48,479 bases of DNA from a bacterium. Its GTDB lineage: Bacteria; Patescibacteriota; Patescibacteriia; JACQSD01. The stretch lies in assembly GCA_030648795.1 (NCBI GenBank), contig JAUSHC010000002.1, positions 1 through 48,479 on the forward strand, written 5' to 3'. Under the pieces are notes generated by a model. That model was not told the origin of the DNA. It made no database searches and saw only the letters and a list, made by a program, of their open reading frames with translations. This document shows, piece after piece, positions 8,275-45,806 of the stretch. The translations under genes were made by a program, and so were the position numbers. How positions within the stretch are numbered: the first letter of the stretch is position 1; the number at the start of each line of letters is the position of its first letter.

Positions 8275-8284
8275 TCAATAGGCA

Positions 8285-8313
8285 TTGACGAGTTTCCCCT
8301 TTTCGTGTACGAT
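8285..8313 (+). promoter_or_regulatory. Sigma70-like promoter TTGACG-17 nt-TACGAT for the MFS gene
   Basis: Hexamers at 8285-8290 and 8308-8313 with a 17-nt spacer. The same architecture recurs at 9633-9661. Confidence 0.55.
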
Positions 8314-8317
8314 CGCG

Positions 8318-8338
8318 GCATCCCGAATACAGGGATGC
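8318..8338 (+). promoter_or_regulatory. Conserved palindrome GCATCCC-N7-GGGATGC at the predicted transcript start (operator or 5' hairpin), copy 1
   Basis: 7-bp arms at 8318-8324 and 8332-8338. The 43-nt block 8308-8350 is near-identical to 9656-9698. Confidence 0.6.
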
Positions 8339-8378
8339 TGTTTGACATTTCGTTAATCATTGAAGGAGGAATCCGCAC

Positions 8379-9594: not shown

Positions 9595-9632
9595 ATATTT
9601 TGGCAGAGCTTACAATTTTTCGTGGCAGACGA

Positions 9633-9661
9633 TTGACAAATTTTCGTTTTTGATATACAAT
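9633..9661 (+). promoter_or_regulatory. Sigma70-like promoter TTGACA-17 nt-TACAAT for the 9737-11307 operon
   Basis: Hexamers at 9633-9638 and 9656-9661 with a 17-nt spacer. Confidence 0.6.
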
Positions 9662-9665
9662 CGTG

Positions 9666-9686
9666 GCATCCCGAATACAGGGATGC
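9666..9686 (+). promoter_or_regulatory. Conserved palindrome GCATCCC-N7-GGGATGC, copy 2
   Basis: Arms at 9666-9672 and 9680-9686. Same loop (GAATACA) and same trailing CTGTTTGA[C/T]ATTT as copy 1. Confidence 0.6.
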
Positions 9687-9736
9687 TGTTTGATATTTGA
9701 ACAATATTCGCGCACTGCGCGAGAAAGGGGTATGCG

Positions 9737-25543: not shown

Positions 25544-27034
25544 ATGCAAAAGATTGTTTTTCCTTTGAGCGTTATTGTTGGCGTTGTTTTTGGTACAACA
25601 CCGAGTGTTGTGCAATTATTCGGTGGCGAGATAACGTTTTTATTTTTTGTAGTTGCATTATGCGCGGGTGTGGCGCTTTCCTGGTGTTGGCAGAATACTC
25701 GACTTCGCATTGTTTTGTTAGTCGTTTTGTTCTTTGTCTTTGGGCTTTGGCGGGGGAGCGCTGTTACGCTTACGGATGAGGTCGTAAGCCCTAAACGTTT
25801 TTCGGGGACAGGCGTCGTTGTCACTGCGCCGTACATTCGAGGGAAAACGCAGGTGTTTGATGTGCGAGTAGATCGTACAACACCGAGTGTTGCTTCAACA
25901 CTCGGTGTTAACGATCGTATAACACTCGGTGTTATTGATCTCGGTGTTGTGACAGGGCAATATCCTCGCTACCGCTATGGGGATGCGCTTTCGATTGATT
26001 GTAAAAGCATAAAAGAGGGGAGCTGCTTTTTTCCGAGTATCCATACATTGGGTGAGGGGAGGGGAAGTTGGGTGTTGTCATTTCTTATCGTCGTGAAGAA
26101 TCATCTTGTCCAAGGGCTCGCGCGCGTACTTCCGGAACCGCATGCGAGTTTTGCGGCGGCGCTTCTTTTGGGCGAGCGTGCTGCATTGCCGAAAGAAATA
26201 AGCGACGCATTTCAAATAACCGGCACAACACACATTGTTGCAGTCTCCGGAACACACGTTGTTATTTTGGGAGAATTTTTGAAAGTCATTCTGGGGCTTG
26301 TTGCGATTCCGATTCGTTTTCGACGTGGCGCGGTTGCTGTTCTCCTTGTATTTTTTACGGCGATGATCGGAGCGCCGGCAAGCGCGGTGCGCGGGCTTAT
26401 TTTTGGACTTATCTTACTCCTTGCAGAGTCAACGGGTCGTCCACGCGCGATGTCCGTTGCGATTGCCACGACCGCCGCAGTACTTCTTCTTGTGCGACCG
26501 GTGTTTCTTTTTGATCTTGGCTTTCAGCTTTCATTTCTCGCAGTCATTGGCATCGTGTATGGTGTGCCCGTGATCAGTCGATTTGTGGATCCTCTTCTTC
26601 CTTTACACTACTTCTTTCGCTCCGCAATAGCTCTTGGTATTATATCGTTTGCCGCGACCGTCATGACAACCCCGCTTCTTGTCGCCACGTTCGGCCGTTT
26701 GTCGCTTATTGGTATTGCGGCGAATATCGTTGTTGCGCCATTGGTTGAACCGGCGACGATCGCAACGCTCGTCGTCGCTCTGCTTGCGGTTCTCCACCCG
26801 TTTATTGCTTTGCCGTTCGGAATTTTACTTTTTGGCATCCTTGGCGCCATGACGAGTGTGATTACTTTTTTTGCAAAGATTCCGGGGGCGGCGCTTGCGG
26901 TGACGCCGATGTCGCCGCTCGTACTCTTTGTTTTATACGCTATTCTTTTTACTGCGCTTTTTTGGCAGTGGCTAAAACTTTCACCATGGGAAAGGAACTT
27001 CTCACTCGAAAAAACATCGCGATCGGCGCAGTAG
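25544..27034 (+). CDS. comEC: ComEC/Rec2 DNA-uptake channel, membrane (DUF4131 + Competence) part
   Basis: Polytopic protein with the ITGTTHIVAVSGTHVVILG motif characteristic of the ComEC competence domain. Confidence 0.85.
   Translation: MQKIVFPLSVIVGVVFGTTPSVVQLFGGEITFLFFVVALCAGVALSWCWQNTRLRIVLLVVLFFVFGLWRGSAVTLTDEVVSPKRFSGTGVVVTAPYIRGKTQVFDVRVDRTTPSVASTLGVNDRITLGVIDLGVVTGQYPRYRYGDALSIDCKSIKEGSCFFPSIHTLGEGRGSWVLSFLIVVKNHLVQGLARVLPEPHASFAAALLLGERAALPKEISDAFQITGTTHIVAVSGTHVVILGEFLKVILGLVAIPIRFRRGAVAVLLVFFTAMIGAPASAVRGLIFGLILLLAESTGRPRAMSVAIATTAAVLLLVRPVFLFDLGFQLSFLAVIGIVYGVPVISRFVDPLLPLHYFFRSAIALGIISFAATVMTTPLLVATFGRLSLIGIAANIVVAPLVEPATIATLVVALLAVLHPFIALPFGILLFGILGAMTSVITFFAKIPGAALAVTPMSPLVLFVLYAILFTALFWQWLKLSPWERNFSLEKTSRSAQ
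25871..25950. repeat. Cluster of AACACCGAGTGTT / AACACTCGGTGTT palindromic repeats inside comEC
   Basis: Hairpin at 25871-25916 with a stem of about 20 bp. Further copies at 25921-25933 and 25597-25609. The arms are shared with the ndk terminator. Confidence 0.9.
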
Positions 27035-27864
27035 CGCTGTTGATTGTCTTTGCGTCGTTTTTACCGCAACTTATCAACCGTCACCGACTTACGATCGACG
27101 TTTTTGATATCGGGCAGGGCGATTCCACGCTTATCACAACGCCGACAGGGGAACATATTTTGGTTGATGGCGGTCCGGATGCGAGTGTGGTTGCGAAACT
27201 CTCCCAGCGTCTTGGTTTTTTTGATCGAACAATCGACCTTGTCATCGCGACGCATCCGCAGGCGGATCACATTACCGGGCTTCTTTCCGTACTCGATCGT
27301 TTCACGGTAAAGCGCGTGATGCTCACCACGATCAAGAATGAGACGCCGGAGTACCGGGTACTTCGAGAGAAGATTACCGAGAAGCATGTTGCACGCACGG
27401 ATATTGCCGATGCGCCTCATGTGGATTTTGGCGATAGCCGCGGGGTTTCGTTGGATGTGCTGTGGCCCGAGCGTTCATACAGCGGCAGGCTTGTGGATGA
27501 CCCGAATATCGTTTCAGCTGTTTTTCGTTTGACGTATGGCGAGGCGAGTTTTCTTTTTACCGGCGATGCAGGAAGCGAAATAGAGCAGCAACTGTTGGAA
27601 GGAGGCGCGGATCTCCACGCGGACGTGTTGAAGGTCGGGCATCACGGGAGTGACACGTCGACGACACAAGCGTTTCTTGACGCGGTTCTCCCGTCCGTTG
27701 CGGTTATTTCTGTCGGGCGTAAGAATACGTTTGGGCACCCAAGCCGTCGTGTGCTCCGTCGCCTTGAACGTGCGGGTTCTGCAATCTATCGTACGGATAG
27801 CAACGGTGACGTCCATATCACAAGCGACGGAAAAGAAATTCGCGTCACCCCGCAGCTTCGGTAG
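26986..27864 (+). CDS. ComEC metallo-beta-lactamase domain encoded as a separate overlapping ORF
   Basis: VFDIGQGDS, ATHPQADHITG and KVGHHGS motifs with an N-terminal TM helix. Lies in a different frame from the upstream ORF and overlaps it. Confidence 0.8.
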   Translation: MGKELLTRKNIAIGAVALLIVFASFLPQLINRHRLTIDVFDIGQGDSTLITTPTGEHILVDGGPDASVVAKLSQRLGFFDRTIDLVIATHPQADHITGLLSVLDRFTVKRVMLTTIKNETPEYRVLREKITEKHVARTDIADAPHVDFGDSRGVSLDVLWPERSYSGRLVDDPNIVSAVFRLTYGEASFLFTGDAGSEIEQQLLEGGADLHADVLKVGHHGSDTSTTQAFLDAVLPSVAVISVGRKNTFGHPSRRVLRRLERAGSAIYRTDSNGDVHITSDGKEIRVTPQLR

Positions 27865-28076
27865 TTTCTTTATTGTTATAAAACGGTATACGCGTCGCAC
27901 TCCGGCACATCCCCTTTCGCTTCGTTCGTCCCGACCCAGCCGTCGGGATTCACTGCTTGCCTTCCCGTCGCTCGTCCGACCGCGGTCGGACACCATGCCC
28001 GCTTTGGTCGGCAACGCCGCTCAAGGGAAACGCGCCAGATTGCGCCGTCTGATTTTGGACGGATCTACCGCAGGTG

Positions 28077-28212
28077 CTCCCGCCGACAATAGCGGAGGTT
28101 TCGATGAAAGTGCAGCTAGGGCGGAGGTGAAGGGGTATCCGAGGCGAGGGTACGCCATCGGAGGAGCCCCCGCGCCGAGACCAGCTGACTTTCCCGAAAC
28201 CGGAGCGTGTCG
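28077..28212 (+). repeat. Core of GC-rich structured repeat, copy A (whole element about 27890-28225)
   Basis: 131/136 identical to 36093-36228 on the same strand. Internal long-range complementarity between 28097-28117 and 28183-28201. Confidence 0.9.
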
Positions 28213-28360
28213 CCGGCGAGCATTGCGGTGGAGCCGACATAGAATACGCTTAGTTCTAGAGAGAAAAAGAGAGCCCCTTGACGGTATTGGGGAGGGGGGA
28301 GTAAGGTCATGGGTAGGTGGGGAAAACCCCGACGCCCGGGGCGTTCCCGGGTTATATTTC

Positions 28361-28466
28361 TTCGTTTTTTCACTCTTTTTCTCCCACCACCATTCCTTCT
28401 CTTCTCGTTCTTTCCACCCACTACTCTTCTTTTCTCTTTTCTTCCCCCTTCTCTCCCAACCCTCTC
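28361..28466 (+). repeat. 106-nt polypyrimidine (C/T) tract
   Basis: By hand count about 95 of 106 nt are C or T and only 2 are G. It ends at the GAGGTG before ATG 28478. Confidence 0.85.
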
Positions 28467-28477
28467 GAGGTGCTTCC

Positions 28478-28819
28478 ATGGCCCAAATCATCAATTTTTC
28501 TACGCATCCGTTGCGTACGGAAAAGAACCATGGGGGAGCTTCGAAAGAGACAGCGCCCCCCAAACCAAATCTACAAAAGGCGCAAATCATCGAGCTTCGT
28601 CCGGTCACACTGGAGGAGCTTCTCGATGCGGTAGAGAGCGGTGAATCAGGCGATGTTTCTATGGGGAATGTTCTTCTAACCTTTGACGAGGTGGCGGAAT
28701 TTTTTCCAGGAGACATCAAGCAACGAAAGAAGCGAGCACTCGCGCTCCCACCGAAGAGCCGTGCTCCTCACTCAAAGCTTCGTACTCCTCGTTCGAAGCG
28801 CGCAAGTGGTACATCATAA
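28478..28819 (+). CDS. Small hypothetical protein with basic C-terminal tail
   Basis: ATG 28478 is preceded by GAGGTG with a 5-nt spacer. 113 aa, no recognisable family. Coding status uncertain. Confidence 0.4.
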   Translation: MAQIINFSTHPLRTEKNHGGASKETAPPKPNLQKAQIIELRPVTLEELLDAVESGESGDVSMGNVLLTFDEVAEFFPGDIKQRKKRALALPPKSRAPHSKLRTPRSKRASGTS

Positions 28820-29003
28820 CCCCACTTGCTTTTTATTTTTGTCGCAAGAACCCCAGAGTTTATCGGAGGGGTGAATTGCGTGACAAAAATAACCCGCCGC
28901 GTATGCCGGTGCCTCGGAGCCGAAGCCCGAAGGGCGGAGGTATGGGGTTGGAGGAGAGGCGGGTTTTCTGGGCATCCGTCAGGCCGAGAGGCGGATATTC
29001 CTA

Positions 29004-29032
29004 TAGACAACCTTCTCGTTTTCTGCTACAAT
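29004..29032 (+). promoter_or_regulatory. Promoter-like TAGACA-17 nt-TACAAT ending 6 nt before ATG 29039 (possible leaderless mRNA)
   Basis: Hexamers at 29004-29009 and 29027-29032. A similar TAGACG-18-TACAGT ends 6 nt before the mraY ATG (40751-40780). Confidence 0.45.
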
Positions 29033-33871: not shown

Positions 33872-35308
33872 TTATTCACTAACCTCTTCCCATGTAAGAA
33901 TACGATTGTCTCCTTGTTTGGGGAAAAATGGTGGTGGAGTAAATATAAGTCGCGTATCGTAGTCTCCTTCTTCACCGCGATATCCGGAAATAATTTTTCC
34001 GGAATCATCCACCCATGTGAATGCAGGAATTTGATTACTGATCATAGTGCCTTTTCGACTGATGGTTGATCGGAGAATAAATGGGGCGTAGGATTTATTG
34101 CACTTATAGCCATAACGGTTTAAACGTTCGTCTGAACAATAATAATTTCGAAAAATGTGTCCTTTCTGCGCGAAAATCGCTGCGTGGAGTTCCAATGTGT
34201 CCGCTGATTCAAGGGGAATGAGAATGTCGTTTTGTGCAATGATCCCGATTGATCCCAGTTTTCCTTCATTCCCTGATGCGGGGGTGGTGAGGCCGCCATT
34301 AATGATAATGGATGCGCTGCCAATCACGGTGACTGGTCGTTTCGTTGCGCCGTCAACCCAGAGTGTGTCATCAAAAAAGAATAAACTTTTTTCTCCGCAT
34401 GCATTTGCCTCCGGGATTGTCACCGTGCGGACTAGGACCTCTTTCTTTATTCCTTCCGCAGTCTCAACCCATCCGGTGCGTCCATCGTATCCCCAAATTT
34501 TTGGCTTGACTTCGGTAACGCGGAAGATGTTGAGCGTTCCGTTTTCATTCATTCGTGCATGATAGCCCAATGCTTTTGATGGTTCAAAATAGGTGTTCGC
34601 TGCTTCAGCTTGTTGTTGAAAAACAGGAAGGCGCAAAATGATCGTATCAAAATCGATTTTTCCTGTTGGAAAATCCCATAGCCCCTTTGCCCCGCCATCT
34701 CCTGCTCCCCAAACTCCCGGCTTTGTTATTGGTGGATTGCAGTCATGTTCAGCGCCGCAGATGTATGTTTGCTTTGCGCTCGTTATGCGGCTTTTGTCGT
34801 CCGAGTCCATACGGATTCCTCCATTGGCGTGTACCGGTCCTTTGAGTTCTCCGCCGCCGAACCATACATTACTATCGGTAAGGTAGGAATATTTCGTGAG
34901 TGCGGGAGCGCCATAGGTGATCGCAATATTTCGGGTGCGTTTTTGATCGGCACTGTGTCCTTTGACGACGACACGTGTACTCCCGCTGCACGTGCTTCGC
35001 GGGGAAATCGTGAATTCGAACGTGCCTACGAGTCCGCCCTGCGGATCACGATATTCATTTGTGGAAGGAGTGGTGTCATCCGGTGCGTGTGCCAAGCGCC
35101 ATCGTGCGTATTCAATACCTGCTTCTGCGGAGGCAAACGCTTGTCCATCAGCAATACTTCTTTGACTGACGTGTATCTCAAGCTGGACATAGGAAAGAAG
35201 CGCAGTAGTGAGGACAAGAAAGATGCCAAGGAACGCGAGCGCCACCGGAAGCGTCGAACCCCGTACATCATTTATGATAGCATACTTTTGCTTCTTCATC
35301 ATTTTCAT
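33872..35308 (-). CDS. Large PilX_N-like pilus-associated protein
   Basis: N-terminal RGSTLPVALAFLGIFLVL segment resembling the PilX N-terminal domain, then a large beta-rich region. Confidence 0.6.
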   Translation of the reverse strand: MKMMKKQKYAIINDVRGSTLPVALAFLGIFLVLTTALLSYVQLEIHVSQRSIADGQAFASAEAGIEYARWRLAHAPDDTTPSTNEYRDPQGGLVGTFEFTISPRSTCSGSTRVVVKGHSADQKRTRNIAITYGAPALTKYSYLTDSNVWFGGGELKGPVHANGGIRMDSDDKSRITSAKQTYICGAEHDCNPPITKPGVWGAGDGGAKGLWDFPTGKIDFDTIILRLPVFQQQAEAANTYFEPSKALGYHARMNENGTLNIFRVTEVKPKIWGYDGRTGWVETAEGIKKEVLVRTVTIPEANACGEKSLFFFDDTLWVDGATKRPVTVIGSASIIINGGLTTPASGNEGKLGSIGIIAQNDILIPLESADTLELHAAIFAQKGHIFRNYYCSDERLNRYGYKCNKSYAPFILRSTISRKGTMISNQIPAFTWVDDSGKIISGYRGEEGDYDTRLIFTPPPFFPKQGDNRILTWEEVSE

Positions 35309-35997
35309 TCTTCTAAACTTGCTTTAATGTTTCGGAGTTCTACTATGGTGTTCACCGTTGTTCCTCTTGGGAGCTGACCGGGAGCGACGTCGATTGCAAA
35401 GTTGATACCAACAAGCAGGACGGCAGTTATATCGAGTGGAGGAAGGATTTCCGTTCCATCTTTTTTATAATAACGAAATAGGGGATCGTTGCCCGTAAGG
35501 TACTGTGCGATCGTCCGTACGCTTTCGTCGCTCTCGTGGTAGTTTGGCGGGTCGCCAAAGGGTTTCGTGATTCCCCGTTTTAAAAGATTATTTTCACGCC
35601 AATAGCGAATACGTTCTCGGGAACTATCGCGGTCAATATCGCTGTAGAATTCAAGTCGATTTGTTTCTGCTTTGATAAGCGGATAGTCGCCTTTGTCGGA
35701 AACAATCGCTTCGCGCAATTCTTTGACGATCATATCCTGTGTACGACGCGCGATAGCGACTTGTGTCGTCTGGTCTGCAGTAATGCGATAATTTTTATAC
35801 CCTTGGACCGTAAGCTCGCCAAGCATCATCGTCACGAGCGAACTTATTGCGACCGCGATGATAATTTCGATAAGCGAAAATCCTCTCTCCCTCGTGGCGA
35901 CGCGGATCCTGTCATGGCGCGCTGCCTCATCCTCTCTCCTCCGGGAGGCAACCCTCTCGCCGTCCGGGATGCTTCCCTCCAGAGCTACCCCAAGCAT
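35305..35997 (-). CDS. Prepilin-type N-terminal cleavage/methylation domain protein (pseudopilin); start uncertain
   Basis: ERGFSLIEIIIAVAISSLV pilin signature. The nearest in-frame ATG (35997) lies inside GC-rich repeat copy B, which would give a 38-aa leader. Confidence 0.65.
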   Translation of the reverse strand: MLGVALEGSIPDGERVASRRREDEAARHDRIRVATRERGFSLIEIIIAVAISSLVTMMLGELTVQGYKNYRITADQTTQVAIARRTQDMIVKELREAIVSDKGDYPLIKAETNRLEFYSDIDRDSSRERIRYWRENNLLKRGITKPFGDPPNYHESDESVRTIAQYLTGNDPLFRYYKKDGTEILPPLDITAVLLVGINFAIDVAPGQLPRGTTVNTIVELRNIKASLEE

Positions 35998-36092
35998 CCC
36001 TCCCGGCGGGGGTTCCCGACGCACCGTCTTTGGCAGCATCGCCATGCCACCCGCTATGCAGCGGATTGAAAGGGACGGATCTGCCAAGTGTC

Positions 36093-36228
36093 CTCCCGCC
36101 GACAATAGCGGAGGTTTCGATGAAAGTACAGCTAGGGCGGAGGCGAAGGGGTATCCGAGGCGATGGTACGCCATCGGAGGAGCCCCCACGCCGAGACCAG
36201 CTGACTTTCCCGAAACCGAAGCGTGTCG
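36093..36228 (+). repeat. Core of GC-rich structured repeat, copy B (whole element about 35912-36240)
   Basis: See copy A. Lies between two minus-strand pilin genes. Confidence 0.9.
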
Positions 36229-44728: not shown

Positions 44729-45796
44729 ATGAAATTATTATTGACCGGTGGAGGCACTCTTGGTTCGGTAACGCCCCTTCTTGCACTTTATGACGAGATG
44801 CGTCCTGAAAAAGTTTTTTGGATCGGCACGCGCAAGGGAATTGAAAAAGAATTCATAGAGCGCGCAGGAATTCCGTTTTATGCCATCACCGCAGGGAAAC
44901 TTCGCCGTTATGTTGATTGGAGGAATCTTTTTTCTCCCATAGAAACAATCCTTGGTTTTTTTCAAGCGTTATTTCTTTTGCAAAAGCTTCAGCCCACGCA
45001 TGTTTTTTCTGCGGGGGGATATGTTGCGGTTCCGGTGGTTTTTGCTGCGGCTTTTCTTGGTATTCCGTCGTATGGAATACAACTCGATGTGCGCCCAGGG
45101 CTTGCGAATCGTTGTATTGCCCCGTTTGTGAAAAAGATGTTTGTGGTTTTTTCTGAAACCGCTCGATTTTTTTCTGCGAGTAAAAGTGTGGTGACCGGCA
45201 GTATGATTCGAAAGAGTATTCGTACCGTTTCGTTAAAGACAGAACAGAAAAAACCACCGCCGTTGGCGGGGTCCCGTCCGAAGGCGGGAGAAGCACATCC
45301 GATGCTCCTTGTACTTGGTGGTGGAACCGGCGCGCTTTCATTAAACGAACTTGTGTGGCAGTCTTTGCGACAGCTTACGGATTTTTGCGACGTTGTGCAT
45401 ATCACCGGTCCTGGGAAGTTTCGACACATTTCGCTTCCGCACTATGAATCGTATAGCTTGGTGAAAGATGCTCTGCCTGCGTTGTTGCGCAATGCGGATT
45501 GCGTGGTCACGCGCGCGGGAATGGGAACGTTGTCAGAGCTTGCGGCGATGCGAAAGGCGGCGATCGTTGTGCCACTACCGAACACCCACCAAGAAGAGAA
45601 TGCGGCGTTACTCGCTTTCCATGATGCGGCAGTTGTGGTAGCGCAACATACATTGACATCAAACAAACTTGTCGATACGGTCAGAATACTCCTCGTAGAC
45701 AGCGAACGTTGCCGTGTGCTTGGTGAAAAATTATACCAATGTATCCCAACTGACGGTGTAGAAAAAATTTCTCAATTCCTAATTCTCAATTCCTAA
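44729..45796 (+). CDS. murG: Lipid II-forming GlcNAc transferase MurG
   Basis: MKLLLTGGGTLGS N-terminus, VLGGGTGA and HQEENA motifs. Position in the dcw cluster. Confidence 0.88.
   Translation: MKLLLTGGGTLGSVTPLLALYDEMRPEKVFWIGTRKGIEKEFIERAGIPFYAITAGKLRRYVDWRNLFSPIETILGFFQALFLLQKLQPTHVFSAGGYVAVPVVFAAAFLGIPSYGIQLDVRPGLANRCIAPFVKKMFVVFSETARFFSASKSVVTGSMIRKSIRTVSLKTEQKKPPPLAGSRPKAGEAHPMLLVLGGGTGALSLNELVWQSLRQLTDFCDVVHITGPGKFRHISLPHYESYSLVKDALPALLRNADCVVTRAGMGTLSELAAMRKAAIVVPLPNTHQEENAALLAFHDAAVVVAQHTLTSNKLVDTVRILLVDSERCRVLGEKLYQCIPTDGVEKISQFLILNS
45255..45290. repeat. In-frame double-hairpin insert in murG, homologous to 38799-38832
   Basis: CACCGCC gtt GGCGG G TCCCG tccgaagg CGGGA compared with CACCGCC tct GGCGG A TCCCG(CC) gt (GG)CGGGA. 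Confidence 0.8.
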
Positions 45797-45797
45797 T
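45770..45797 (+). repeat. Four tandem heptamers TC[T/C][C/T]AAT (28 nt) spanning the murG stop codon
   Basis: tctcaat tcctaat tctcaat tcctaat, which is a perfect 14-mer x2. The TAA stop is at 45794-45796. Confidence 0.95.
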
Positions 45798-45806
45798 TCA
45801 TTATTC

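What the first reader, a model, noticed from the sequence alone, without database searches (positions are those of the whole stretch)
27880..28360. Unclassified GC-rich, highly structured ~330-nt element (copy A) in a 1.2-kb non-coding gap after comEC
The core 28077-28212 matches 36093-36228 at 131 of 136 positions on the same strand. The flanks remain alignable back to about 27905 and 35925. There the two copies differ mainly by having different local hairpins: tcccgac..gtcggga and tccgacc..ggtcgga in A, and gggatgctt..aagcatccc in B. The core folds on paper into a 105-nt irregular hairpin. In it, 28097-28117 (ggtttcg-at-gaaagt-g-cagct) pairs with 28183-28201 (agctg-actttc-cc-cgaaacc), with nested tccga/tcgga and ggcg/cgcc stems. 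The region is visibly more GC-rich than its surroundings and is open in several frames on both strands without giving any protein-like sequence. A GC hairpin and T-run follow at about 28330-28370. I could not match it to the conserved cores I remember for RNase P, tmRNA, SRP, group I/II introns or common riboswitches. A weak third echo (AGGGCGGAGGT at 28931-28941) lies in the same gap. The element is a candidate novel structured sRNA family or a non-autonomous mobile element.
Basis: partly seen in the sequence, partly recalled or inferred. Interest (0 to 1): 0.75.

Follow-up and report, generated by a model that had tools for sequence, protein, structure and literature searches.

The report
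GC-rich hairpin insertion element in Patescibacteria
Two copies of a roughly 340-base GC-rich segment built around a 180-base hairpin sit in the pilus/competence region of a Patescibacteria genome; one is a lineage-specific insertion that lies in frame inside a prepilin leader, so it most likely belongs to a small, undescribed family of mobile palindromic repeats and is probably not a free-standing RNA gene.

Summary
The repeat is real. 28057-28237 matches 36073-36253 at 89%, and the inner 136 nt match at 131/136. Each copy folds into a 66-bp hairpin of about 184 nt (RNA z = -7.6). Five pairs in the basal stem changed on both sides and none is broken. Both copies are 62-66% GC in a 46.5% GC contig. 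No Rfam family matches, and no protein homologue exists in the two frames searched.

Related contigs change the picture.
- The site of copy B is empty in two relatives, where the two pseudopilin genes abut.
- In the window, 342 nt sit in frame inside the prepilin leader, bounded by CGGATCC repeats.
- Copy A's 3' stem strand is present at the same locus in two other relatives. Their contigs start at the edge of the conserved core, as expected at a repeat.

The T-run hairpin, a conserved 113-aa ORF and a third insertion in the "non-coding gap" are separate features. Similarity between the 5' flanks is only marginal.

Best reading (0.55): a non-autonomous, hairpin-forming insertion element like MITEs and Rickettsia palindromic elements, but atypical. 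It is GC-rich, conserved at the apex, and carries a variable 5' module. A functional RNA family is not excluded. Only two full copies were available, and the public-collection scans were narrow.

The parts
27893..28056 (.). Copy A, 5' variable GC-rich module (164 nt; 39% C on the + strand; local hairpins at 27929-27949 and 27974-27991)
   Evidence: Sequence; composition and marginal similarity to the module of copy B; local hairpins in the fold.
28057..28240 (.). Copy A, long irregular hairpin (66 pairs). The apical core 28077-28212 is 96% identical to copy B
   Evidence: The 3' basal strand is conserved in relatives L008 and L009.
35910..36072 (.). Copy B, 5' variable GC-rich module (40% C on the + strand; long local hairpin around 35958-36010)
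   Evidence: This stretch is absent from the orthologous site in L003 and L005.
36073..36256 (.). Copy B, long irregular hairpin; apical core 36093-36228
   Evidence: Logan contigs L001 and L002 end inside it.
35903..35909 (.). CGGATCC, left copy of a 7-nt direct repeat bounding the 342-nt unit of copy B
   Evidence: CGGATCC occurs only 4 times in the window. Its status as a target-site duplication is ambiguous.
36245..36251 (.). CGGATCC, right copy of the direct repeat. It lies within the basal stem of hairpin B, aligned to TGGAGCC in copy A
35305..36312 (-). Prepilin (minor pilin) ORF that reads through copy B. The orthologous ATG is at 36300-36298, the element occupies 114 codons of the leader, and the G|FSLIE cleavage motif starts at 35883
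   Evidence: required frame open in 5.9% of shuffles; unit length 342 = 3 x 114. NCBI annotates a 260-aa product that starts inside the element.

Best explanation
I think this is a lineage-restricted, non-autonomous insertion element of about 340-350 bp. It has two parts: a 181-184-nt GC-rich hairpin whose apical 136 nt are its conserved, functional part, and a fast-evolving GC-rich module of about 165 nt on one side.

Shown:
- It occurs at least twice in this Patescibacteria contig, in the same orientation, at unrelated sites.
- The hairpin is kept by compensatory changes.
- Copy B is an insertion relative to two related genomes.
- Copy B sits in frame in the leader-peptide region of a minor prepilin gene.
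- Copy A's 3' stem strand is at the same locus in two relatives.

Inferred:
- Copies are made by an enzyme encoded elsewhere in the genome that recognises the conserved apex of the hairpin, as folded single-stranded DNA or as RNA. That would explain why the apex stays about 96% identical while the rest drifts.
- Insertions survive where they are harmless. Examples are just 3' of a stop codon, or in frame in a leader that prepilin peptidase removes.
- Once inserted, the hairpin acts passively as a very stable RNA structure in whichever mRNA carries it. It sits 17 nt after the upstream pseudopilin stop (copy B, minus strand). In copy A the GC-rich module starts about 28 nt after the comEC stop and the hairpin follows it (plus strand). 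Such a structure could slow 3' exonucleases or act as a processing site, as REP and ERIC elements do (established knowledge, not tested here).
For: - Repeat and hairpin.
- Stem pairing: 66/66 pairs are kept in both copies, with 5 two-sided and 2 wobble changes, against 33-42% pairing when partners are slid.
- Empty site for copy B: in L003 the two pseudopilin genes overlap and the leader is 26 aa; in L005 there is a 38-nt spacer and a 9-aa leader. The window has about 340 extra nt.
- Frame at copy B: the orthologous ATGAAGAT start is kept and the frame stays open through the 342-nt unit. Removing one repeat unit gives a 26-aa leader.
- Locus A in relatives: L008 and L009, from two other samples, both begin at the 3' edge of the core (GCGTGT...) and share ...GTGGAGCCG[A/G].
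- Contig breaks in the source sample fall inside the core.
- No transposase or RT gene is in the window, which fits a non-autonomous element.
- Not coding: no homologues in the -2 and +1 frames. All 5 core differences are non-synonymous in both of these frames (read).
- No own promoter or terminator.
- No Rfam family.
Against: - Only two full copies were seen, and copy number in the genome is unknown.
- No homologue turned up in the GTDB representative genomes (two patterns), the JGI metagenomes (one valid pattern, which matches copy A only), IMG/VR, or the phage and plasmid collections.
- The 340-nt unit has no significant terminal inverted repeats.
- The direct repeats are short. The one at B overlaps sequence homologous to copy A, and the candidate at A (ATACGC) is not at the homologous position.
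- The conservation pattern (centre conserved, ends diverged) is the reverse of a classical MITE.
- The element is GC-rich, whereas MITEs are typically AT-rich (PMC10969869).
- Retention of copy A at one locus across relatives with only about 67-69% protein identity looks more like a selected element than a decaying parasite.
- Contig breaks in metagenome graphs can also come from strain variation. L010, for example, ends at 27937, outside the core.
Confidence: 0.55

Rival explanations
1. It is a family of paralogous structured non-coding RNAs, or a cis-acting RNA element, that the cell itself uses. The conserved apical hairpin would bind a protein or RNA partner, the basal stem would be purely structural, and the 5' module would be a fast-evolving domain. 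Copy A would be the ancestral gene and copy B a later duplicate.
For: - The apex is 96% identical while the stem diverged with 5 compensatory pairs and no broken pair.
- Folding is very strong (z -7.6).
- The element is retained at locus A in two distant relatives.
- The variable modules keep their length and composition.
- The + strand is 7-9 kcal/mol more stable than the - strand.
Against: - Neither copy has a promoter-like or terminator-like site of its own, and the only terminator nearby belongs to the downstream leader.
- Copy B lies inside an ORF on the opposite strand and is absent in relatives.
- The host operons would transcribe the two copies in opposite senses.
- G-U pair counts do not favour a strand.
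- No Rfam family matches.
- If B were a copy of A, the 5' module should be similar, and it is near saturation.
Confidence: 0.22
2. It is the leftover end of a guide-RNA-encoding or hairpin-recognising transposon. Examples are a derivative of the IS200/IS605/IS607 type (palindrome-associated element keeping the structured right end) or of the IS110 type. It would be mobilised, or used as an RNA scaffold, by a TnpA/TnpB-like or recombinase gene elsewhere in the genome. This is a specific version of the mobile-element reading.
For: - The architecture is a variable part next to a conserved, highly structured part of about 180 nt.
- The same short sequence (CGGATCC) lies in the left flank and at the right end of copy B. 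That is what insertion next to a specific short target, or site-specific recombination at a short core, would give (inference from established knowledge of these families).
- There is no classical terminal inverted repeat.
Against: - No TnpA, TnpB, IscB, IS110 or RT gene is in the 48-kb window.
- Nothing in Rfam matches either copy.
- A single unbranched hairpin is unlike the branched scaffolds known for those RNAs (from memory, not tested).
- Copy A shows no matching motif at its ends.
Confidence: 0.12
3. It is protein-coding: a GC-rich coding module, such as a domain or peptide inserted into genes.
For: - Several frames are open.
- Copy B is translated in frame with a prepilin if the orthologous start is used.
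- NCBI's gene model starts inside it.
Against: - There are no homologues of the -2 frame (only the gene itself) or of the +1 frame (0 hits among 1.84 billion representatives).
- All 5 core substitutions are non-synonymous in both of those frames.
- Copy A has a stop in the frame used at copy B and lies outside any gene.
- An open frame is expected in about 6% of shuffles at this GC content.
Confidence: 0.03
4. It is an assembly artefact: the second copy arose from a chimeric join at a repeat.
For: Contigs of an independent assembly break inside the core, so the 60 nt at 36122-36181 are bridged only in the MAG contig.
Against: - Both B-specific junctions are present in the independent Logan contigs. 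These include the B-specific basal stem arms, which pair with each other.
- The gene order PilC - pseudopilin - pilin across the join is the conserved order in L003 and L005.
Confidence: 0.02

Closest known systems
Rickettsia palindromic elements (RPEs)
   Same: Both are palindromic, hairpin-forming repeats with no enzyme gene of their own. Both insert into intergenic DNA and also in frame into protein-coding genes, producing translational fusions (PMC10969869). Copy B behaves in this way.
   Different: RPEs are about 100-150 bp and specific to Rickettsia. This element is about 340 bp, GC-rich, from Patescibacteria, and carries an extra non-palindromic module. No conserved peptide is evident. 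Sequence similarity to RPEs was not tested directly.
Bacterial MITEs (for example Correia/NEMIS, ERIC, QMITE)
   Same: Both are under 500 bp, non-coding and repeated. Their transcripts fold into very stable stem-loops, and they can sit at gene ends or inside genes and alter expression (PMC10969869).
   Different: MITEs are defined by terminal inverted repeats and target-site duplications, are usually AT-rich, and conserve their ends. In this element the whole inserted unit has no significant terminal repeats, the duplication is ambiguous, GC is 62-66%, and the centre (hairpin apex) is the conserved part.
REP/REPIN elements mobilised by RAYT transposases
   Same: Both are hairpin-forming repeats that lie just 3' of genes, persist vertically for long periods, and depend on a single-copy enzyme acting in trans (established knowledge).
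   Different: REPs are 20-40 nt units with GTAG/CGTC heads (PMC3733652) and REPINs about 100 nt. No such short unit or doublet organisation is seen, and no RAYT gene is in the window.
Structured RNAs that are one long irregular hairpin (6S RNA, small SRP RNA)
   Same: They are of similar size (about 180 nt), form a single extended hairpin, and have a conserved apical or central part with covarying stems.
   Different: No match to any Rfam model, which should include these, even at E<10. There are two copies, one of them inside an ORF and absent in relatives, and no promoter or terminator.

Membership tests
MITE | Small (<500 bp) and without a transposase gene | tested here: met
   The unit is about 342-349 nt. 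It has no ORF with homologues and the window holds no transposase.
MITE | Terminal inverted repeats at the ends of the inserted unit | tested here: not met
   Comparing the ends of the about 340-nt unit gave a chance-level score for A and p of about 0.075 for B (CGGATCC[T]GTCA). Only the internal 181-nt hairpin is an inverted repeat.
MITE | Target-site duplication flanking the element | tested here: inconclusive
   At B, CGGATCC lies at 35903 and 36245, 342 nt apart, but the right copy lies in sequence homologous to copy A. At A, ATACGC lies at 27888 and 28244 (read), but not at the homologous position.
MITE | Multiple dispersed copies, with filled and empty sites | tested here: inconclusive
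   There are two copies in the window. The site of copy B is empty in L003 and L005. Contigs break at the core in three samples. Whole-genome copy number could not be measured.
Rickettsia palindromic element | Palindromic repeat inserted in frame in an ORF | tested here: met
   Copy B adds 114 codons with no stop between the orthologous ATG and the G|FSLIE motif.
Rickettsia palindromic element | Belongs to one of the RPE sequence families, about 100-150 bp, encoding a conserved peptide | tested here: not met
   The size is about 340 nt. All 5 core differences are non-synonymous in the frame that is translated, and there are no protein homologues. Direct comparison with RPE sequences was not possible with these tools.
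Any Rfam family (RNase P, tmRNA, SRP, 6S, group I/II introns, riboswitches, ribozymes, HEARO and others) | Score at or above the family's gathering threshold | tested here: not met
   There were 0 matches in the whole window. Only sub-threshold noise appeared at E<10 around both copies, and no family was shared between them. ARAGORN found no tRNA or tmRNA.
Independent sRNA gene | Own promoter and terminator delimiting a transcript, on the same strand in all copies | tested here: not met
   No promoter-like site lies in or next to either copy. The terminator at 28334-28352 is part of a separate conserved leader and is missing at copy B. This is a consensus scan only, and no expression data were available.
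REP/REPIN | 20-40-nt REP units with GTAG/CGTC heads, arranged as inverted doublets, plus a RAYT gene | not tested
   No such unit organisation is visible in the sequence and no RAYT gene is in the window. The rest of the genome is not available.
IS200/IS605- or IS110-derived element | Homology of the structured part to the end of an element that encodes TnpA/TnpB or an IS110 recombinase | not testable with these tools
   This needs the rest of the MAG, and the window has no such gene.

The most novel reading that the evidence does not exclude
The hairpin may define a previously undescribed class of mobile structured element in Patescibacteria. In it, a conserved 136-nt apical module is the functional unit. 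It could be the recognition site or RNA partner of an unknown recombinase or reverse transcriptase, or a cellular RNA in its own right. This module would be coupled to a hypervariable module of fixed length (about 165 nt). The element would persist at orthologous loci over deep divergence while still seeding new, in-frame insertions in surface-protein genes.
Probability: 0.2. Interest if true: 0.7.

Novelty: new variant of a known kind. Interest (0 to 1): 0.45.

Why it matters
Repeat elements and small mobile DNAs are almost undescribed in Patescibacteria. My two literature searches pairing candidate-phyla-radiation terms with MITEs or structured RNAs found nothing on them.

This element shows that such reduced genomes can carry GC-rich hairpin insertions that break assemblies. 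These insertions mislead gene callers: the public annotation starts a pilin gene inside the element. They can also be tolerated inside a gene for a cell-surface protein by landing in the cleaved leader.

If the conserved apex proves to be the handle of a new mobilising enzyme, or an RNA with its own function, that would be a new system. If not, it is a useful but ordinary addition to the list of bacterial palindromic repeats.

Tried and rejected
- **Rfam.** The search at gathering score over the whole window, and at E<10 around both copies, found nothing usable. ARAGORN found nothing.
- **Collection scans.**
  - Pattern 1 (28086-28128, purine/pyrimidine-coded in stems) gave 0 hits in viral, genome and metagenome contigs. 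I found later that it matches copy A but not copy B, so it was stricter than intended.
  - Pattern 2 (the apex) was mistyped in the second and last metagenome scan. It did not match the window itself, so that scan was wasted.
  - The corrected apex pattern, which matches both copies, gave 0 hits in genome and viral contigs.
  - JGI metagenomes were therefore tested with only one valid, strict pattern.
- **BLASTN.** The element had no match in the phage or plasmid collections.
- **Protein route to other copies.** The -2 frame of copy B found only the pilin itself. The +1 frame of copy A found nothing among 1.84 billion representatives. Exact look-ups of nine further ORFs across the elements were not on record.
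- **Extra copies in held sequence.** BLAST and a covariance model over the window and seven related loci found no third copy.
- **Diversity-generating retroelement.** I considered and rejected a template/variable-repeat pair. The 5 differences are not confined to adenines, most adenines are identical, and no RT gene is present.
- **Group I intron in the pilin gene.** I rejected this for lack of any Rfam signal and because the frame is kept open.
- **RNase P-like reading.** GAUGAAAGU and CCCGGGUUAU resemble RNase P motifs as I recall them, but no RNase P model in Rfam matched and copy B lacks the second motif.
- **Terminal inverted repeats of the whole unit.** Not significant.
- **Strand assignment from G-U pairs.** Inconclusive.
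- **Left side of locus A in relatives.** An exact look-up of the 113-aa ORF was not on record.

Full report
**1. The observation**

The repeat is real. The repeat finder reports 28057-28237 against 36073-36253, 181 nt at 89%, in the same orientation and 8016 nt apart. A register-by-register count shows the inner 28077-28212 differing at five positions, which is 131/136. Identity falls on both sides of this core.

- It has 66 pairs over about 184 nt.
- As RNA it gives -103 kcal/mol against -71 +/- 4 for dinucleotide shuffles (z -7.6, 0 of 200). As DNA, z is -6.0.

The two copies are the most GC-rich stretches of a 46.5% GC window, at 0.62-0.66.

In the diverged basal stem, every predicted pair is kept in both copies. 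Five pairs changed on both sides and two on one side to a wobble. Sliding the partners by 1-3 columns drops pairing to 33-42%. With only two sequences, and a structure derived from them, this is supportive rather than statistical proof.

**2. What did not hold**

- The 5' flanks (27893-28056 and 35905-36072) are not convincingly alignable. Z is 1.9-2.9 under four scoring schemes, and a stricter local alignment was at chance. They do share length (164 and 168 nt), composition (39-40% C on the + strand) and a content of local hairpins.
- The 'third echo' is an 11-mer only. Neither BLAST nor a covariance model of the hairpin finds a third copy in the window or in seven related loci.
- No Rfam family reaches its threshold anywhere in the window. 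At E<10 only unrelated noise appears, and it differs between the two copies. There are no tRNA or tmRNA genes.

**3. Context**

The contig comes from a Patescibacteria (CPR) MAG. The PilC protein is annotated in NCBI as 'MAG ... [bacterium]' on a 48,479-nt contig. Its nearest named relatives, at about 50% identity, are Parcubacteria and Buchananbacteria.

The region is a type IV pilus and competence cluster.
- ComEC is on the + strand at 25544-27864, split into two overlapping ORFs.
- PilB, PilC, a 444-aa pseudopilin, a second pseudopilin, a 478-aa protein, PilM and PilN are on the - strand.

Copy A follows the comEC stop. Copy B lies between the two pseudopilin genes. No transposase, reverse transcriptase, TnpB or integrase domain was found in the window ORFs scanned against Pfam.

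**4. Copy B is an insertion, and it is in frame**

Relatives with 65-74% identical PilC exist only as short contigs. In two of them the orthologous junction is empty.
- In L003 the second pseudopilin gene overlaps the end of the first by 29 nt and has a 26-aa leader.
- In L005 the spacer is 38 nt and the leader is 9 aa.

The window keeps the same overlapping start (ATGAAGAT, 36300), and about 340 extra nucleotides follow. The 335-aa ORF 35305-36312 runs from that region through the whole element to the prepilin cleavage motif G|FSLIE.

The extra unit is bounded by CGGATCC at 35903 and 36245, exactly 342 nt (114 codons) apart. Deleting one unit leaves MKISPSPRCNTILFWNRIRVATRERG|FSLIE, a 26-aa leader.

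Only 5.9% of dinucleotide shuffles of the unit are stop-free in the required frame. Together with the 1-in-3 chance of a length divisible by three, an intact ORF is unlikely by chance, at about 2% after the fact. I read this as survivorship: an insertion in a leader that is cleaved off is tolerable.

The element itself does not look coding.
- All five core differences between A and B are non-synonymous in this frame and in the other fully open frame.
- The translated element has no homologue apart from the pilin gene itself.
- The +1 frame of copy A has none among 1.84 billion representative proteins.

NCBI annotates a 260-aa pilin whose start codon lies inside the element.

**5. Copy A is old and the core is repeated in relatives**

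Two Logan contigs from other samples (L008, L009) carry homologues of the 395-aa gene downstream of copy A, at 67-69% identity. Both contigs begin within 2 nt of the same homologous position, the 3' edge of the conserved core (GCGTGT..., window 28206). They continue through a recognisable 3' basal strand (...GTGGAGCCG[A/G]) into a strongly conserved promoter and leader region.

Two independent assemblies stopping at the same edge is what a de Bruijn graph does at a repeat. In the source sample the contigs likewise stop inside copy B's core (L001 at 36182, L002 at 36121).

This evidence is indirect. Strain variation also breaks contigs, and L010 ends at 27937, inside copy A's variable module.

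So the element is present at locus A in lineages that have diverged deeply, while copy B is specific to this lineage. B cannot be a recent copy of A, because outside the apex the two are near saturation.

**6. Features that are not part of the repeat**

- The hairpin plus T-run at 28334-28352 sits in a block of about 95 nt (28274-28368). The block reads CCCCTTGACG, 16-18 nt, TAAGGT, then GGTAGGTGGGGAAAACCCC and GCCCGGG...CCCGGGT. It is almost invariant in L008 and L009 and absent at copy B.
- This block precedes a conserved 113-aa ORF (28478-28819) with a GAGGTG ribosome-binding site. The gap is therefore not all non-coding.
- A further 179 nt (28840-29018) are missing in L008 and L009. This is a third GC-rich insertion, and it supplies the -35 hexamer of the next gene's promoter. 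It is not a strong hairpin (z about -1.5 on either strand) and is not detectably related to A or B.

**7. Interpretation**

The best-supported reading is a non-autonomous insertion element built around a hairpin. Its behaviour is closest to Rickettsia palindromic elements (in-frame insertions) and to MITE, ERIC and REP-type repeats, which are stable stem-loops at gene ends (PMC10969869, PMC3733652).

It fails or leaves open several defining MITE features.
- The inserted unit has no significant terminal inverted repeats.
- The target duplication is ambiguous.
- It is GC-rich.
- It is conserved at the centre, not at the ends.

The central conservation needs an explanation. I favour selection at the level of the element, with the apex serving as the handle for a mobilising enzyme encoded elsewhere. 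Gene conversion between copies is an alternative. A cellular RNA function is the main rival (0.22).

The strand of any RNA product is undetermined. The + strand folds 7-9 kcal/mol better, but wobble counts are similar on both strands. The two host operons would transcribe the copies in opposite senses.

**8. Limits**

- Only two full copies were available.
- All public-collection scans were negative but narrow. One metagenome scan was lost to a mistyped pattern.
- The rest of the MAG and the read sets could not be searched by DNA.
- The left side of locus A in relatives could not be retrieved.

**9. Verdict**

This is a real, strongly structured, lineage-restricted repeat with direct evidence of insertion. 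It is most likely a new, atypical family of palindromic mobile elements in Patescibacteria. Interest is moderate. It would be higher if the conserved apex turns out to be the partner of a new enzyme or an RNA with its own function.

Noticed in passing
window 28274-28368 (+), and L008 47-140, L009 80-170: A block of about 95 nt is nearly invariant in two distant relatives. It has a promoter-like TTGACG, 16-18 nt, then TAAGGT/TAGGGT, followed by a GGGGAAAACCCC hairpin and a GCCCGGG..CCCGGGT hairpin with a T-run. A CT-rich tract of variable length (28360-28470) follows, before the small ORF. It could be an attenuator or leader, or a short RNA.
   Followed up: partly
It is 49% identical to the L008 product over the region aligned. 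It has no NCBIfam match (Pfam not scanned), and the exact protein is not on record in the public protein collection.
   Followed up: partly
window 28840-29018: A third GC-rich insertion (179 nt) is absent at the same spot in L008 and L009. It provides the -35 hexamer TAGACA of the promoter at 29004-29032. The Logan contig L002 ends inside it, at 28907.
   Followed up: partly
window 25544-27864 (+): ComEC is split into two ORFs that overlap in different frames: the Competence domain at 25544-27034 and the metallo-beta-lactamase domain at 26986-27864. The same split is present in an independent Logan contig (L010), so it is a frameshift or a true two-gene arrangement and was not introduced when the MAG was assembled.
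   Followed up: partly
window 35305-36087 (-): NCBI's annotation (MDO8581289.1, 260 aa) and the Logan gene call (246 aa) both start the pilin at codons inside copy B. This gives leaders of about 68 and 54 aa. The orthologous start at 36300 would give 139 aa.
   Followed up: yes
window 8284-8350 and 9632-9698: A 67-nt direct repeat (84% identical) holds a promoter-like TTGAC..TACGAT/TACAAT and a GGCATCCC..GGGATGCT hairpin. It lies upstream of two consecutive genes.
   Followed up: no
window 42977-43003, 43190-43217, 45769-45799: Short tandem motifs occur at gene ends: GCTGTCAGTTGTCA-type repeats, CCCTAAT x4 (telomere-like heptamer), and TTCTCAATTCCTAAT x2.
   Followed up: no
window 37581-37636: Two tandem copies of a 28-nt unit (ATCGTGGATCGTGTATCGTGAAACATAT) lie between PilC and the 444-aa pseudopilin gene.
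   Followed up: no
L005 1573-1965: In one relative a PDDEXK_3-family gene sits between PilC and the pseudopilin gene. This junction of the pilus cluster therefore accepts insertions in other lineages too.
   Followed up: no
window 28092-28130 and 36108-36146 (+): Inside the hairpin, a GGAGG motif lies 5 nt upstream of an ATG. The mini-ORF is 8 codons in copy A (MKVQLGRR*) and 56 codons in copy B, because the T/C difference at 28129 removes the stop. The + strand of the core carries three GGAGG motifs.
   Followed up: no
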